64,000 nt of DNA, from the sequence record MW822011. One strand, given 5' to 3'. This stretch comes from Shigella phage TB004. The notes beneath the pieces were generated by a model. That model was given only the letters and a program-made list of their open reading frames with translations. It did not search any database and was not told the origin of the DNA. Each line of letters starts with the position of its first letter. The stretch's first letter is position 1. Position numbers and translations under genes: made by a program. Below, piece by piece: positions 29,859 to 63,267 of the stretch.

Positions 29859-30008
29859 CTCCTTCGGGAGTCCTTTTTTCATTTTGCCAGTTTACTTTCC
29901 AAAATGAGTATGGTATAATAAAACTATCTTATAGATCGGGAGTCCTTTTTTCATTTTGCCAGTTTACTTTCCAAAATGAGTATGGTATAATAAAACTATC
30001 TTATAGAG
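29859..30008 (+). repeat. tandem direct duplication (2 x 72 bp) of a terminator-hairpin + early-promoter cassette
   Basis: GGGAGTCCTTTTTTCATTTTGCCAGTTTACTTTCCAAAATGAGTATGGTATAATAAAACTATCTTATAG occurs twice in tandem; first copy preceded by CTCCTTCGGGAG hairpin. Confidence 0.8.
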
Positions 30009-59601: not shown

Positions 59602-62298
59602 ATGAAAGAATTTTATATCTCTATCGAAACAGTCGGAAATAACATTGTTGAACGTTATATTGATGAAAATGGAAAGGAACGTACTCGTGAAGTAGAATAT
59701 CTTCCGACTATGTTTAGACACTGTAAGGAAGAATCAAAATACAAAGACATTTACGGTAAAAACTGTGCTCCTCAAAAATTTCCATCAATGAAAGATGCAC
59801 GAGATTGGATGAAACGAATGGAAGACATCGGTCTCGAAGCTCTCGGTATGAACGATTTTAAACTCGCTTATATCAGTGATACATATGGTTCAGAAATTGT
59901 TTATGACCGAAAATTTGTTCGTGTAGCTAACTGTGACATTGAGGTTACTGGCGATAAATTTCCTGACCCAATGAAAGCAGAATATGAAATTGATGCTATC
60001 ACTCATTATGATTCAATTGACGACCGTTTTTACGTCTTTGATTTGTTGAATTCAATGTACGGTTCAGTATCAAAATGGGATGCAAAGTTAGCTGCTAAGC
60101 TTGACTGTGAAGGTGGTGATGAAGTTCCTCAAGAAATTCTTGACCGAGTAATTTATATGCCATTCGATAATGAGCGTGATATGCTCATGGAATATATTAA
60201 TCTCTGGGAACAGAAACGACCGGCTATTTTTACCGGTTGGAATATTGAGGGATTTGACGTTCCGTATATCATGAATCGTGTTAAAATGGTTCTGGGCGAA
60301 CGCAGTATGAAACGCTTCTCCCCAATCGGTCGAGTAAAATCTAAATTAATTCAAAATATGTACGGTAGCAAAGAAATTTATTCTATTGATGGCGTATCTA
60401 TTCTTGATTATTTAGATTTGTATAAGAAATTCGCATTTACTAATTTGCCGTCATTTTCTTTGGAATCAGTTGCTCAGCACGAAACCAAAAAAGGTAAATT
60501 GCCGTACGATGGTCCTATTAATAAACTTCGTGAGACTAATCATCAACGATACATTAGTTATAACATCATTGACGTAGAATCAGTTCAAGCAATTGATAAA
60601 ATTCGTGGGTTTATCGATCTAGTTTTAAGTATGTCTTATTATGCTAAAATGCCTTTTTCTGGTGTAATGAGTCCTATTAAAACTTGGGATGCTATTATTT
60701 TTAACTCACTGAAAGGTGAACACAAGGTTATTCCTCAACAAGGTTCGCACGTTAAACAAAGTTTTCCAGGTGCATTTGTATTTGAACCTAAAGCGATTGC
60801 TCGTCGATACATTATGAGTTTTGACTTGACGTCTCTGTATCCTAGCATTATTCGTCAGGTTAACATTAGTCCTGAGACTATTCGCGGGCAGTTTAAAGTT
60901 CATCCAATTCATGAATATATCGCAGGAACAGCTCCTAAGCCAAGTGATGAATATTCTTGCTCTCCGAATGGATGGATGTATGATAAGCACCAAGAAGGTA
61001 TCATTCCAAAGGAAATCGCTAAAGTATTTTTCCAGCGTAAAGATTGGAAAAAGAAAATGTTCGCTGAAGAAATGAATGCCGAAGCTATTAAAAAGATTAT
61101 TATGAAAGGTGCAGGGTCTTGTTCAACTAAACCAGAAGTTGAACGATATGTTAAGTTCAATGATGATTTCTTAAATGAACTATCAAATTACACTGAATCT
61201 GTTCTTAATAGTCTGATCGAAGAATGTGAAAAAGCAGCTACACTTGCTAACACAAATCAGCTGAACCGTAAAATTCTTATTAACAGTCTTTATGGTGCTC
61301 TTGGTAACATTCATTTCCGTTACTATGATTTGCGAAATGCTACTGCTATCACAATTTTTGGTCAAGTTGGTATTCAGTGGATTGCTCGTAAAATTAATGA
61401 ATATCTGAATAAAGTATGTGGAACTGATGGTGAAGATTTCATCGCAGCAGGTGATACTGATTCGGTATATGTTTGTGTAGATAAAGTAATTGAAAAAGTA
61501 GGTCTTGACCGCTTTAAAGAACAAAATGATTTAGTTGAATTCATGAATCAGTTTGGTAAGAAAAAGATGGAACCTATGATTGATGTTGCATATCGTGAGT
61601 TATGTGATTATATGAATAACCGCGAGCATCTAATGCATATGGACCGTGAAGCTATTTCTTGTCCTCCACTTGGTTCAAAGGGCGTTGGTGGATTTTGGAA
61701 AGCGAAAAAACGCTATGCTCTGAACGTTTATGATATGGAAGATAAGCGATTTGCTGAACCACATCTAAAAATCATGGGTATGGAAACTCAACAGAGTTCA
61801 ACACCAAAAGCAGTACAAGAAGCTCTCGAAGAAAGTATTCGTCGCATTCTTCAGGAAGGCGAAGAGTCTGTCCAAGAATACTATAAGAACTTTGAGAAAG
61901 AATATCGTCAACTTGACTATAAAGTTATTGCTGAAGTAAAAACCGCGAACGATATAGCGAAATATGATGATAAAGGTTGGCCAGGATTTAAATGTCCGTT
62001 CCATATTCGTGGTGTGCTAACTTATCGTCGAGCTGTTAGCGGTTTAGGTGTAGCTCCAATTTTGGATGGAAATAAGGTAATGGTTCTTCCATTACGTGAA
62101 GGAAATCCATTTGGTGACAAGTGCATTGCTTGGCCATCAGGCACAGAACTTCCAAAAGAAATTCGTTCTGACGTACTATCTTGGATTGACTACTCAACTT
62201 TGTTCCAAAAATCGTTTGTTAAACCGCTTGCGGGCATGTGTGAATCAGCAGGTATGGACTATGAGGAAAAAGCTTCGTTAGACTTCCTGTTTGGCTGA
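59602..62298 (+). CDS. 43: DNA polymerase gp43 (family B)
   Basis: 898 aa with exonuclease and polymerase motifs (YGDTDS); recognisable T4 gp43. Confidence 0.95.
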   Translation: MKEFYISIETVGNNIVERYIDENGKERTREVEYLPTMFRHCKEESKYKDIYGKNCAPQKFPSMKDARDWMKRMEDIGLEALGMNDFKLAYISDTYGSEIVYDRKFVRVANCDIEVTGDKFPDPMKAEYEIDAITHYDSIDDRFYVFDLLNSMYGSVSKWDAKLAAKLDCEGGDEVPQEILDRVIYMPFDNERDMLMEYINLWEQKRPAIFTGWNIEGFDVPYIMNRVKMVLGERSMKRFSPIGRVKSKLIQNMYGSKEIYSIDGVSILDYLDLYKKFAFTNLPSFSLESVAQHETKKGKLPYDGPINKLRETNHQRYISYNIIDVESVQAIDKIRGFIDLVLSMSYYAKMPFSGVMSPIKTWDAIIFNSLKGEHKVIPQQGSHVKQSFPGAFVFEPKAIARRYIMSFDLTSLYPSIIRQVNISPETIRGQFKVHPIHEYIAGTAPKPSDEYSCSPNGWMYDKHQEGIIPKEIAKVFFQRKDWKKKMFAEEMNAEAIKKIIMKGAGSCSTKPEVERYVKFNDDFLNELSNYTESVLNSLIEECEKAATLANTNQLNRKILINSLYGALGNIHFRYYDLRNATAITIFGQVGIQWIARKINEYLNKVCGTDGEDFIAAGDTDSVYVCVDKVIEKVGLDRFKEQNDLVEFMNQFGKKKMEPMIDVAYRELCDYMNNREHLMHMDREAISCPPLGSKGVGGFWKAKKRYALNVYDMEDKRFAEPHLKIMGMETQQSSTPKAVQEALEESIRRILQEGEESVQEYYKNFEKEYRQLDYKVIAEVKTANDIAKYDDKGWPGFKCPFHIRGVLTYRRAVSGLGVAPILDGNKVMVLPLREGNPFGDKCIAWPSGTELPKEIRSDVLSWIDYSTLFQKSFVKPLAGMCESAGMDYEEKASLDFLFG

Positions 62299-62310
62299 TA
62301 GAATAAATCT

Positions 62311-62332
62311 AGGGACCTCCGGGTCCCTTTTT
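62311..62332 (+). terminator. rho-independent terminator (AGGGACC-TCC-GGGTCCCT + T-run)
   Basis: GC stem plus TTTTT after gene 43. Confidence 0.6.
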
Positions 62333-62413
62333 CATACAAGTAATATAAATCTATACTTAGGAAAAATAGATGATTCTGGACCTCTGGAATTCATTAAAAA
62401 TTTTTTCACAAAA

Positions 62414-62447
62414 CTGTTTACATCTCTGTTCTTCCGTGGTACTATAC
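62414..62447 (+). promoter_or_regulatory. T4-type early promoter with conserved leader GGTACTATACAACTATCAACT
   Basis: GTTTAC ... CGTGGTACTAT. Confidence 0.5.
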
Positions 62448-62479
62448 AACTATCAACTGATACGGATTTGGAGAATGAA

Positions 62480-62860
62480 ATGAAAATCGCTATTTTGGTT
62501 ATTGCATTGGGTCTTACTGGTTGTGTAGCTCAAGGACCAGTAGTAAATCAATCTGATGTAGGAAAAATTGTAAACTGTTCAAGCAAATTTTATAATCCTA
62601 ACGTCAAGTGTTATAAAGAAGCTCCAAAACAGACAGTAGAACAGATGCAGGCAAATTTTGACGAAGCGATTCGTCCAGATGAATCTGCTCAAGCATATCG
62701 TAATTCAGATGTAATTACACGCGAAGAAAAAATTGAAAACTACTGCGCTGAGCTTTGGGCTAATTGGGCTAATAATTACCAATGGCGTACTGGTAAAAAT
62801 GCTCCGATGGAGTATGTAGTGAATTCTTATAATTCATGTGTAAAAAATTTGACTAAGTGA
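62480..62860 (+). CDS. predicted lipoprotein (126 aa) upstream of imm
   Basis: Signal peptide with lipobox LTGC (MKIAILVIALGLTGC). Confidence 0.5.
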   Translation: MKIAILVIALGLTGCVAQGPVVNQSDVGKIVNCSSKFYNPNVKCYKEAPKQTVEQMQANFDEAIRPDESAQAYRNSDVITREEKIENYCAELWANWANNYQWRTGKNAPMEYVVNSYNSCVKNLTK

Positions 62861-62867
62861 GGAAAAC

Positions 62868-63119
62868 ATGGAAACTTTAGTAGCAGGTTCAATTTTTATG
62901 GTTTTAGTTTCAGGTGTGTTGGCTATTATTATATACATGCTTCCGTGGTTCATCGCCTTGATGCGTGGGTCAAAATCGACAGTAGGAATCTTTTTCACAT
63001 CTTTACTGTTTAACTGGTCAATCATTGGTTGGTTTATTACTTTTATTTGGTCAATTGCAGGTGAAACTAAAAAATCTGTACAGCAAAATCAAGTAATTAT
63101 CATCAGAGAGAAGGAATGA
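62868..63119 (+). CDS. imm: superinfection immunity membrane protein Imm
   Basis: 83-aa two-TM protein between 43 and 42. Confidence 0.65.
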   Translation: METLVAGSIFMVLVSGVLAIIIYMLPWFIALMRGSKSTVGIFFTSLLFNWSIIGWFITFIWSIAGETKKSVQQNQVIIIREKE

Positions 63120-63267
63120 AAAGCAAAATTTTAGCAGTATTGCTTTTAATCTTGATGATTATAATAAGTATATACTATAGCGTAGCAGTTCCTTGTATGA
63201 TTCCAACCCTTATTATAGGGTGGAGTTTATTACTGTTACAAGTTAAATATGAATGCATCAATTGAGG
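63118..63267 (+). CDS. small hydrophobic protein (49 aa)
   Basis: MKSKILAVLLLILMIIISIYYSVAVPCMIPTLIIGWSLLLLQVKYECIN read manually. Confidence 0.3.

What the first reader, a model, noticed from the sequence alone, without database searches (positions are those of the whole stretch)
62414..62860. Promoter-driven lipoprotein gene immediately upstream of imm
A 126-aa protein with a lipobox signal peptide (LTGC) and several Cys/Trp residues has its own early promoter and sits beside the superinfection-immunity gene. It is a plausible periplasmic exclusion or envelope-modifying factor.
Basis: inference. Interest (0 to 1): 0.35.

Follow-up and report, generated by a model that had tools for sequence, protein, structure and literature searches.

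The report
T4 imm.1 lipoprotein gene beside imm
This is the already catalogued but functionally unstudied T4 gene imm.1, an early-expressed envelope lipoprotein that in every lineage examined sits next to the superinfection-immunity gene imm, so it is a good untested candidate partner of Imm.

Summary
Window 62480-62860 (+) encodes a 126-aa protein with a rule-conforming lipoprotein signal peptide (MKIAILVIALGLTG|C15). It follows the gene-43 terminator (62311-62328) and a T4-type early promoter (62416-62445), and lies 7 nt upstream of imm.

It is not new. It is the ortholog of T4 imm.1 (old name ORF 42.2; Pfam DUF5481, PHROG 1754), 99% identical to T4 and 100% identical to many Tequatrovirus proteins. 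T4 imm.1 is early at both RNA and protein level and dispensable in a laboratory knock-down screen. I found no paper assigning it a function.

What I add:
- The family is confined to T4-like phages.
- It is under strong purifying selection (dN/dS 0-0.05 between the window and T4, T2 and ime09).
- In the window and all 30 fetched loci that carry it, it lies on the same strand within 151 nt of imm. This holds across three flanking contexts and both gene orders.
- One clade replaces the lipobox with an ordinary secretion signal, so a periplasmic location is the shared feature.
- No known fold or family matches.

Best reading (about 0.45): an outer-membrane-tethered periplasmic accessory of Imm-mediated superinfection immunity. 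That function is inferred, not shown.

The parts
62311..62328 (+). Intrinsic terminator hairpin (AGGGACC-TCCG-GGTCCCT followed by TTTTT) ending gene 43. Together with the promoter below it forms a PeSL-type terminator-promoter composite.
   Evidence: 7-bp stem, 5 GC pairs, T-run. The same site is annotated as a potential terminator in T4 record M37159. Conserved in T4 and T2. PeSL consensus from PMC4122927.
62416..62445 (+). T4-type early promoter: -35 GTTTACA (62416-62422), 17-nt spacer, extended -10 TGg (62437-62439), -10 TACTAT (62440-62445).
   Evidence: 9 matches in the window versus 0.02 expected, all on the + strand. (one match per related locus; directly upstream of the cassette in 11, upstream of frd.3 in L008). 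(conserved in T4 and T2). T4 imm.1 is classified as early RNA.
62470..62473 (+). Shine-Dalgarno GGAG, 6 nt upstream of the imm.1 ATG.
   Evidence: Read directly from the sequence.
62480..62860 (+). imm.1 coding sequence (126 aa plus stop): Pfam DUF5481, PHROG 1754.
   Evidence: 100% identical to many Tequatrovirus proteins; dN/dS 0-0.035 against ime09, T4 and T2.
62480..62524 (+). Lipoprotein signal peptide MKIAILVIALGLTG plus the lipidated Cys15 (codon 62522-62524). Residue +2 is Val, which by the E. coli +2 rule predicts Lol sorting to the outer membrane.
   Evidence: rule-based check. The lipobox is conserved in T4 (LAGC), Mosigvirus, Gelderlandvirus, Jiaodavirus, Dhakavirus and Gaprivervirus homologs.
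62868..63119 (+). imm (83 aa), the superinfection immunity inner-membrane protein. Its GAGG ribosome-binding site overlaps the imm.1 stop codon and no terminator lies between the two genes.
   Evidence: PF14373, E=7.8e-16; PHROG 1039; sequence.
63116..63265 (+). 49-aa hydrophobic mini-ORF (PHROG 3610) whose ATG overlaps the imm stop codon (ATGA). It is a possible third member of the cassette in many lineages.
   Evidence: E=4.4e-25; present directly after imm in T4, T2, L006-L008, Dhakavirus and Gaprivervirus.

Best explanation
**Shown or strongly supported.** The ORF is the ortholog of bacteriophage T4 imm.1. It is transcribed with imm, and probably with the 49-aa ORF and gene 42, from a T4-type early promoter that follows the gene-43 terminator.

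**Inferred from sequence rules.**
- The precursor is exported and lipidated at Cys15.
- A roughly 35-residue low-confidence tether, containing the conserved YNPNVKxY motif, holds a roughly 75-residue helical domain in the periplasm.
- That domain carries an invariant Cys89/Cys120 pair, which may form a disulfide.

**Inferred from gene neighbourhood only.** Imm.1 is the periplasmic, outer-membrane-side accessory of the Imm superinfection-immunity module. It would help the inner-membrane protein Imm stop DNA transfer from secondary T-even phages. Two routes seem most plausible: binding a conserved part of the incoming tail tip or tube, or acting at the envelope site where the tube meets the inner membrane. 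It improves immunity rather than being essential for it.

**Confidence.** Identity, export and early expression: about 0.95. The superinfection-immunity role: about 0.45, which is the figure given for this explanation as a whole.
For: **Identity.**
- DUF5481, E=5.4e-72, 239 bits against a cut-off of 27; PHROG 1754, E=5e-44.
- 99% identical to T4 ORF 42.2/imm.1 and 100% identical to ime09 imm.1 and many others.

**Expression.**
- The promoter belongs to a 9-member class in the window.
- T4 imm.1 (T4p046, UniProt P18057) is classified 'early-RNA_early-Protein' in PMC9697503 supplements.

**Export.**
- The lipobox rule is met and no Asp is at +2.
- Lipoboxes are conserved in six genera.
- Clade P0004/P0008 has a plain Sec-type signal ending ...AHA instead, so a periplasmic location is the shared feature.

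**Selection.** dN/dS is 0-0.035 between the window and ime09, T4 and T2.

**Linkage to imm.**
- In the window and all 30 fetched loci that carry a PHROG 1754 member, imm is on the same strand within 151 nt.
- This holds in three flanking contexts: 43...42; dmd...sp-61 in Mosigvirus, where imm.1-imm-sp are contiguous; and after frd.3.
- It holds in both orders: imm.1 then imm, or imm, PHROG 3610, then PHROG 1754 in Dhakavirus and Gaprivervirus.
- Record counts in the phage collection match by identity band. High-identity band (taken to be Tequatrovirus): 501 with imm.1 and 501 with imm. Lower band (taken to be Mosigvirus): 155 and 156.
- An early-promoter motif precedes the cassette in every locus where the motif is found.
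Against: - No experiment links Imm.1 to exclusion. I found no paper on its function.
- From my memory of Lu and Henning 1989 (paper not held), plasmid-borne Imm alone excludes T4 and disruption of imm alone abolishes immunity. Imm.1 is therefore at most an enhancer.
- CRISPRi-ART knock-down of T4 imm.1 scored 'Not Fit'. That screen does not assay superinfection, so it is only weakly informative.
- Adjacency could reflect co-mobilisation of a promoter-flanked cassette (PeSL shuffling, PMC4122927) rather than joint function.
- Imm homologs outside the T4-like phages lack the family (Obolenskvirus and Skatevirus).
- The structure model is only moderately confident (mean pLDDT 66-67) and gave no informative fold match.
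Confidence: 0.45

Rival explanations
1. Imm.1 is an envelope-protecting or envelope-remodelling factor that acts independently of Imm. Examples would be resistance to lysis from without, stabilising the link between outer membrane and peptidoglycan, or inhibiting a host periplasmic enzyme. It would simply share an immediate-early operon with imm.
For: Periplasmic or outer-membrane location. Early expression. At least 97% identity among Tequatrovirus phages isolated on E. coli, Shigella, Yersinia, Salmonella and Citrobacter suggests a conserved target. In Mosigvirus it clusters with sp, the factor for resistance to lysis from without.
Against: Independence from Imm does not explain why the pair stays contiguous through relocation and order inversion in about ten lineages. 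No similarity to known enzyme inhibitors or peptidoglycan-binding domains.
Confidence: 0.2
2. Imm.1 is a receptor-masking lipoprotein of the T5 Llp or Cor type. It would bind an outer-membrane phage receptor from the periplasmic side and block adsorption or triggering by later phages.
For: Same general design as Llp: a small lipoprotein made early and predicted to sit in the inner leaflet of the outer membrane (Llp as described in PMC9586334 and bioRxiv 10.64898/2026.03.26.714494, listed).
Against: Imm.1 is 98-100% identical in T4, T2 and other Tequatroviruses. By established knowledge these use different receptors (OmpC, FadL/OmpF, Tsx), so receptor-specific masking is unlikely. One clade lacks the lipid anchor. 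No sequence similarity to any other Pfam family. By established knowledge, T-even superinfecting phages still adsorb to infected cells.
Confidence: 0.08
3. The linkage is not functional. imm.1 is a passenger that travels with imm because both lie inside one promoter-bounded mobile cassette. Its role would be unrelated, for example counter-defence or exclusion of unrelated phages.
For: The locus has the terminator-plus-early-promoter (PeSL) architecture reported to mediate modular shuffling in T4-type genomes. T2-type phages carry an extra 83-aa ORF inserted just behind the same promoter.
Against: In Mosigvirus, imm.1 and imm each have their own promoter-like site yet remain adjacent. Dhakavirus and Gaprivervirus keep the genes together in the reverse order. 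The matching record counts in about 650 Tequatrovirus and Mosigvirus genomes suggest neither gene is lost alone.
Confidence: 0.15
4. Imm.1 is a lysis protein: an outer-membrane spanin subunit.
For: It is a small outer-membrane lipoprotein with periplasmic Cys residues.
Against: It has an early promoter, and the T4 ortholog is early at RNA and protein level. There is no adjacent type-II inner-membrane spanin or lysis cassette; the neighbours are the DNA polymerase, imm and the dCMP hydroxymethylase. By established knowledge, T4 spanins are PseT.3 and PseT.2.
Confidence: 0.02

Closest known systems
Bacteriophage T4 Imm.1 (T4p046, UniProt P18057; ORF 42.2 of M37159); Pfam DUF5481 (PF17578); PHROG 1754
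   Same: Same gene: 99% amino-acid identity, same position between gene 43 and imm, same promoter and terminator.
   Different: Only T13 versus A13 in the lipobox (LTGC versus LAGC) and one extra C-terminal Lys. Neither has a known function.
T4 Spackle (Sp, gp61.3)
   Same: A small, early, exported helical protein of the T-even superinfection-exclusion repertoire. In Mosigvirus its gene directly follows imm.1-imm.
   Different: No detectable sequence or fold similarity: nothing significant in the PDB searches, which should include the Spackle structures. Sp is soluble, whereas Imm.1 is usually lipid-anchored. Sp's target, the gp5 lysozyme, is known (PMC7677548); Imm.1's target is not.
T5 Llp and phi80/N15 Cor superinfection-exclusion lipoproteins
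   Same: An early-made small lipoprotein predicted to sit in the inner leaflet of the outer membrane, encoded by a virulent coliphage.
   Different: No homology. Imm.1 is invariant across phages with different receptors. It always sits next to the inner-membrane protein Imm rather than next to a receptor-binding-protein gene.
PeSL (promoter-early stem-loop) composite motifs of T4-type phages
   Same: The terminator hairpin 62311-62328 plus the promoter TTTACA-N17-TACTAT match the PST/T4 consensus TTTACW-N17-TAYWAT (PMC4122927).
   Different: This describes only the regulatory flank, not the protein.

Membership tests
T4 Imm.1 / DUF5481 (PF17578) / PHROG 1754 | Profile HMM score above the curated threshold over the full domain | tested here: met
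   PF17578: 239.2 bits against a cut-off of 27, profile positions 1-103 of 103. PHROG 1754: E=5e-44, positions 2-148 of 148.
T4 Imm.1 / DUF5481 (PF17578) / PHROG 1754 | Position next to imm on the same strand in a T4-like genome | tested here: met
   7 nt separate the imm.1 stop and the imm ATG in the window. The same adjacency holds in all 30 related loci that carry the family.
Bacterial lipoprotein (signal peptidase II substrate) | Positively charged N-region, hydrophobic core, lipobox [LVI][ASTVI][GAS]C with Cys between positions 15 and 35 | tested here: met
   K2, core IAILVIALG, LTGC with Cys15; hand-coded PS51257-type rule satisfied. SignalP and LipoP were not available.
Bacterial lipoprotein (signal peptidase II substrate) | Actual diacylglyceryl modification and globomycin-sensitive cleavage | not testable with these tools
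   Needs labelling or globomycin experiments. T4 proteomics detects the protein but not its lipidation.
Outer-membrane (Lol-sorted) lipoprotein | No Asp at position +2 after the lipidated Cys (E. coli +2 rule) | tested here: met
   +2 is Val. The lipobox-bearing homologs examined have V, A, G, S or Q at +2.
Imm (PF14373 Imm_superinfect); many public records label imm.1 'immunity protein' | Match to the Imm_superinfect profile; two-transmembrane inner-membrane protein | tested here: not met
   Imm.1 has no PF14373 match, while the neighbouring ORF 62868-63119 matches at E=7.8e-16. The 'immunity protein', 'iduronate sulfatase' and 'Phage immunity' labels are annotation carry-over.
Llp / Cor type receptor-blocking lipoproteins | Sequence or fold homology to Llp or Cor | tested here: not met
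Llp / Cor type receptor-blocking lipoproteins | Binds and inactivates the phage's own outer-membrane receptor | not testable with these tools
   Indirect argument against: at least 98% identity between T4 and T2, which use different receptors (established knowledge).
Outer-membrane spanin subunit | Late expression within a lysis cassette, next to or embedded in an inner-membrane spanin gene | tested here: not met
   Early promoter. The T4 ortholog is early at RNA and protein level. Neighbours are gene 43, imm and gene 42.
T4 early promoter / PeSL composite | TTTACW-N17-TAYWAT preceded by a stem-loop | tested here: met
   TTTACA-N17-TACTAT at 62417-62445 and a hairpin at 62311-62328. Consensus from PMC4122927. 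Enrichment: 9 matches versus 0.02 expected.
Known anti-phage defence proteins (PADLOC) | Significant match to a defence-system model | tested here: not met
   Only a 14-bit chance-level hit.

The most novel reading that the evidence does not exclude
Imm.1, Imm and, in many lineages, the 49-aa PHROG 3610 membrane peptide form one envelope-spanning superinfection-immunity machine. In this reading Imm.1 is the missing periplasmic or outer-membrane component that recognises or obstructs the incoming T-even tail tip. That would explain how a tiny inner-membrane protein can stop DNA ejection half-way.
Probability: 0.3. Interest if true: 0.6.

Novelty: already known. Interest (0 to 1): 0.33.

Why it matters
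How T4 Imm blocks DNA entry has stayed unclear since the 1970s-80s; a 2019 review still calls its action "less easily understood" than Spackle's (PMC6832632). Imm is always accompanied in T4-like phages by a conserved exported lipoprotein, and often by a mini membrane peptide. That gives a concrete, cheap test: delete or co-express Imm.1. The gene itself is ordinary annotated T4 content. The practical value is a sharper hypothesis and a correction of widespread mis-annotation ('immunity protein', 'iduronate sulfatase').

Tried and rejected
**Structure.**
- Two AlphaFold2 runs, with 7-row and 19-row alignments, gave mean pLDDT of only 66-67. Only the region from about residue 80 to 125 is confident.
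- Foldseek against PDB found nothing at E<=0.001.
- Foldseek against BFVD found only the family itself.

**Sequence families.**
- Pfam, NCBIfam and PADLOC gave nothing beyond DUF5481.
- hhalign of the family profile against the JD18 and Melville proteins aligned only the N-terminus. Homology of those proteins rests instead on full-length PHROG 1754 matches.

**Deep protein searches.**
- 1.84 billion cluster representatives yielded 6 hits.
- The 5.8-billion-sequence collection yielded 3, 8 and 18 clusters in three searches. Every context I looked up (P0004, P0005, P0007, P0008) is phage-like. There is no convincing bacterial homolog: the one 'Xanthomonas' entry, P0021, looks like a Jiaodavirus fragment.

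**Literature.**
- 'DUF5481' returned 0 papers.
- 'imm.1' returned 1 paper, which only lists it as a T4-group marker and speculates about exclusion.
- Miller et al. 2003 (PMC150520) is not held. The Lu and Henning papers could not be read and are cited from memory only.
- The HIDEN-SEQ preprint main text does not mention imm.1.

**Other.**
- The search for related loci with the broad alignment failed for lack of a conserved block. The narrower alignments mostly re-found known isolates.
- The 189-aa TTG-initiated extension of the ORF (62291-62860) is rejected because it runs through the terminator and promoter.
- The spanin and Llp-like readings are rejected under the rival explanations.

Full report
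**1. The observation**

The window ends with the T4-type gene order 43, small ORF, imm, mini-ORF, 42.
- Gene 43 (DNA polymerase, 898 aa) ends at 62298.
- A GC-rich hairpin with a T-run lies at 62311-62328.
- A promoter follows at 62416-62445: GTTTACA, 17 nt, TGgTACTAT.
- GGAG is at 62470-62473, and an ATG at 62480 opens a 126-codon frame ending with TGA at 62858-62860.

The finding's start coordinate, 62414, is therefore the promoter.

The protein starts MKIAILVIALGLTGC. It has K2, a nine-residue hydrophobic core, the lipobox LTGC and Cys15, and it meets a PROSITE PS51257-type rule coded by hand. Val at +2 predicts Lol sorting to the outer membrane by the E. coli +2 rule.

The next ORF, 62868-63119, is imm (PF14373, E=7.8e-16). 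Its GAGG ribosome-binding site overlaps the imm.1 stop codon.

**2. More than chance**

- The promoter motif GTTTAC-N15-17-TGNTAYWMT occurs 9 times in the window, all on the + strand, against 0.02 expected from shuffles.
- The ORF matches Pfam DUF5481 at E=5.4e-72 and PHROG 1754 at E=5e-44.
- Against ime09, T4 and T2 the gene shows 11-13 synonymous but only 0-2 non-synonymous differences, giving dN/dS of 0-0.035. It is a real gene under strong purifying selection.

**3. Identity**

This is T4 imm.1.
- The T4 record M37159 calls it ORF 42.2, with a putative terminator annotated just upstream.
- ime09 and PP01 annotate it imm.1.
- It is 99% identical to the T4 protein (LAGC instead of LTGC, and one extra C-terminal Lys here) and 100% identical to proteins of many Tequatroviruses.

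For T4 itself:
- Supplementary tables of PMC9697503 classify imm.1 (T4p046, UniProt P18057) as 'early-RNA_early-Protein'.
- The CRISPRi-ART screen (PMC11879866) lists its function as unknown and its knock-down as 'Not Fit', meaning dispensable for plaque growth in the laboratory.
- Full-text searches found no functional study. 'DUF5481' returned 0 papers. 'imm.1' returned one paper, which only names it as a T4-group marker and speculates on exclusion.

Many public records mislabel it 'immunity protein', 'Phage immunity' or 'iduronate sulfatase'. It has no similarity to Imm.

**4. Distribution**

The family is very narrow.
- An exhaustive HMMER pass over 1.84 billion cluster representatives gave 6 hits.
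- Three searches of the 5.8-billion-sequence collection gave 3, 8 and 18 clusters. All contexts I looked up are phage-like.

By tblastn against the phage collection:
- 656 records carry a detectable relative of the window protein. Of these, 501 are at 95% identity or more (taken to be Tequatrovirus) and 155 are at about 33% (the Mosigvirus relatives sampled).
- More distant members are recognised through full-length PHROG 1754 matches:
  - Salmonella Gelderlandvirus (Melville 'putative conserved lipoprotein', E=4e-46)
  - Klebsiella Jiaodavirus (JD18, E=2e-15)
  - Dhakavirus (JS98, E=9e-52)
  - Gaprivervirus (VR26, E=3e-47)
- The JD18-type and Melville-type proteins add 148 and 112 records, the latter also including Citrobacter and Enterobacter phages.
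- Imm itself is found in about 1,010 records.

**5. The main new result: conserved neighbourhood**

In the window and all 30 fetched loci that encode a family member, imm lies on the same strand within 151 nt.

| Lineage | Gene order |
|---|---|
| Tequatrovirus and metagenomic relatives | 43, imm.1, imm, (PHROG 3610), 42 |
| Gelderlandvirus, Jiaodavirus | 43, imm.1, imm, 42-like |
| Mosigvirus | ...dmd, one ORF, imm.1, imm, sp... toward 61 |
| Metagenomic contig L008 | frd.3, imm.1-like, imm, PHROG 3610 |
| Dhakavirus, Gaprivervirus | 43, imm, PHROG 3610, PHROG 1754 lipoprotein |

- In Mosigvirus the pair has moved to a different region and sits directly before sp, the other known exclusion gene.
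- In Dhakavirus and Gaprivervirus the order is inverted. One Dhakavirus-like locus, L026, lacks the mini-ORF and has imm directly followed by the lipoprotein gene, 12 nt apart.
- Record counts match by identity band: 501 with imm.1 against 501 with imm in the high band, and 155 against 156 in the lower band.
- An early-promoter motif precedes the cassette wherever the motif is found. It is directly upstream in eleven loci and upstream of frd.3 in L008.
- Imm homologs in unrelated small phages (Obolenskvirus, Skatevirus) lack the family.

**6. Protein anatomy**

- Across the family only Tyr38, Cys89 and Cys120 are invariant or nearly so. The closer set also shares YNPNVKxY and AQAYRxSD.
- AlphaFold2 gives a low-confidence N-terminal stretch of about 35 residues after the lipid anchor. 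Helices follow at 53-64, 68-74, 81-104 and 110-125. Only the last two are confident (mean pLDDT 66-67).
- The invariant Cys pair lies on those two helices, so a disulfide is plausible. I could not measure it.
- Two clusters (P0004, P0008) replace the lipobox Cys by Phe or Ser and end their signal peptides with ...AHA, as in a signal-peptidase-I site. The shared feature of the family is therefore periplasmic export, and the lipid anchor is usual but not universal.

**7. Mechanism**

Shown or strongly supported: the gene's identity, its purifying selection and its linkage to imm. Early transcription and translation are measured in T4; here they are inferred from the promoter.

Inferred from rules: lipidation, outer-membrane sorting, a periplasmic helical domain.

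Inferred from neighbourhood only: a role as the periplasmic arm of Imm-mediated superinfection immunity.

Points in favour of that role:
- The persistent adjacency through rearrangement.
- The imm.1-imm-sp cluster in Mosigvirus.
- Early timing (by established knowledge, exclusion is set up within minutes).
- Near-invariance across phages with different receptors and hosts, which points to a conserved target such as the incoming tail tip or a conserved envelope site.

Points against:
- No phenotype is known.
- By my recollection of Lu and Henning 1989, Imm alone suffices for exclusion from a plasmid.
- T4-type early genes are shuffled as promoter-flanked cassettes (PeSLs, PMC4122927), and this locus has exactly that architecture. 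Physical linkage alone is therefore weaker evidence here than in most genomes.

I put the superinfection-immunity role at about 0.45. The rivals are an Imm-independent envelope function (0.2), an unrelated passenger (0.15), Llp-like receptor masking (0.08) and a spanin (0.02).

**8. Verdict**

The finding is a correct reading of a known but uncharacterised T4 gene. The locus is ordinary T-even content, so it is 'already known'.

What is worth carrying forward is the comparative result. The lipoprotein, Imm and often a 49-aa membrane peptide form a conserved cassette. This turns the old question of how Imm works into a simple set of deletion and co-expression experiments.

Noticed in passing
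window 63116-63265 (+): A 49-aa very hydrophobic mini-ORF (PHROG 3610, E=4e-25) whose ATG overlaps the imm stop codon (ATGA). It is conserved directly after imm in T4 (unannotated in M37159), T2, several metagenomic relatives, Dhakavirus and Gaprivervirus. It is frameshifted in ime09 and absent in Mosigvirus, Gelderlandvirus and Jiaodavirus. It may be a third cassette member.
   Followed up: partly
L012 1879-2379 (JS98) and L011 1892-2395 (VR26): Dhakavirus and Gaprivervirus encode a longer (166-167 aa) PHROG 1754 lipoprotein with an LLSGC lipobox. It lies downstream of imm rather than upstream, so the gene order is inverted while adjacency is kept.
   Followed up: yes
L004 1645-1896 (phage T2), compared with window 62446-62480: T2-type relatives carry an extra 83-aa ORF inserted between the shared early promoter and imm.1. 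It is absent from this window and from T4, and is mis-annotated 'tail tape measure protein' in the T2 record. This is consistent with PeSL-mediated cassette insertion.
   Followed up: partly
P0004 (L008 718-1086) and P0008 (L009 5001-5372): One clade of Imm.1 homologs has lost the lipobox Cys (LAGF, LAFS) and has an ordinary ...AHA signal-peptidase-I type site. These are probably soluble periplasmic variants.
   Followed up: partly
window 29890-29919 and 29962-29991 (+): Two identical copies of the early-promoter motif (GTTTACTTTCCAAAATGAGTATGGTATAAT) lie 72 bp apart, apparently a tandem promoter duplication.
   Followed up: no
window 62568-62596 (+), inside imm.1: A sigma-70-like site TTGTAA-17-TATAAT (10 of 12 matches) lies within the imm.1 coding sequence and could be an internal promoter for imm. 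In Mosigvirus ST0 a separate promoter-like site lies between imm.1 and imm (L003, about 2867-2900).
   Followed up: no
L016 1142-1435 (Salmonella phage SeSz-2, Skatevirus): An unrelated 97-aa protein with a Sec-type signal peptide and two Cys (PHROG 2315) lies directly upstream of this siphovirus's imm homolog. It may be an analogous periplasmic partner, but this is a single observation.
   Followed up: no
public records; P0021: imm.1 is widely mis-annotated as 'immunity protein', 'Phage immunity' or 'iduronate sulfatase'. An 86-aa 'Xanthomonas campestris' protein (P0021) is nearly identical to the C-terminal part of the Jiaodavirus lipoprotein and is probably phage contamination.
   Followed up: partly
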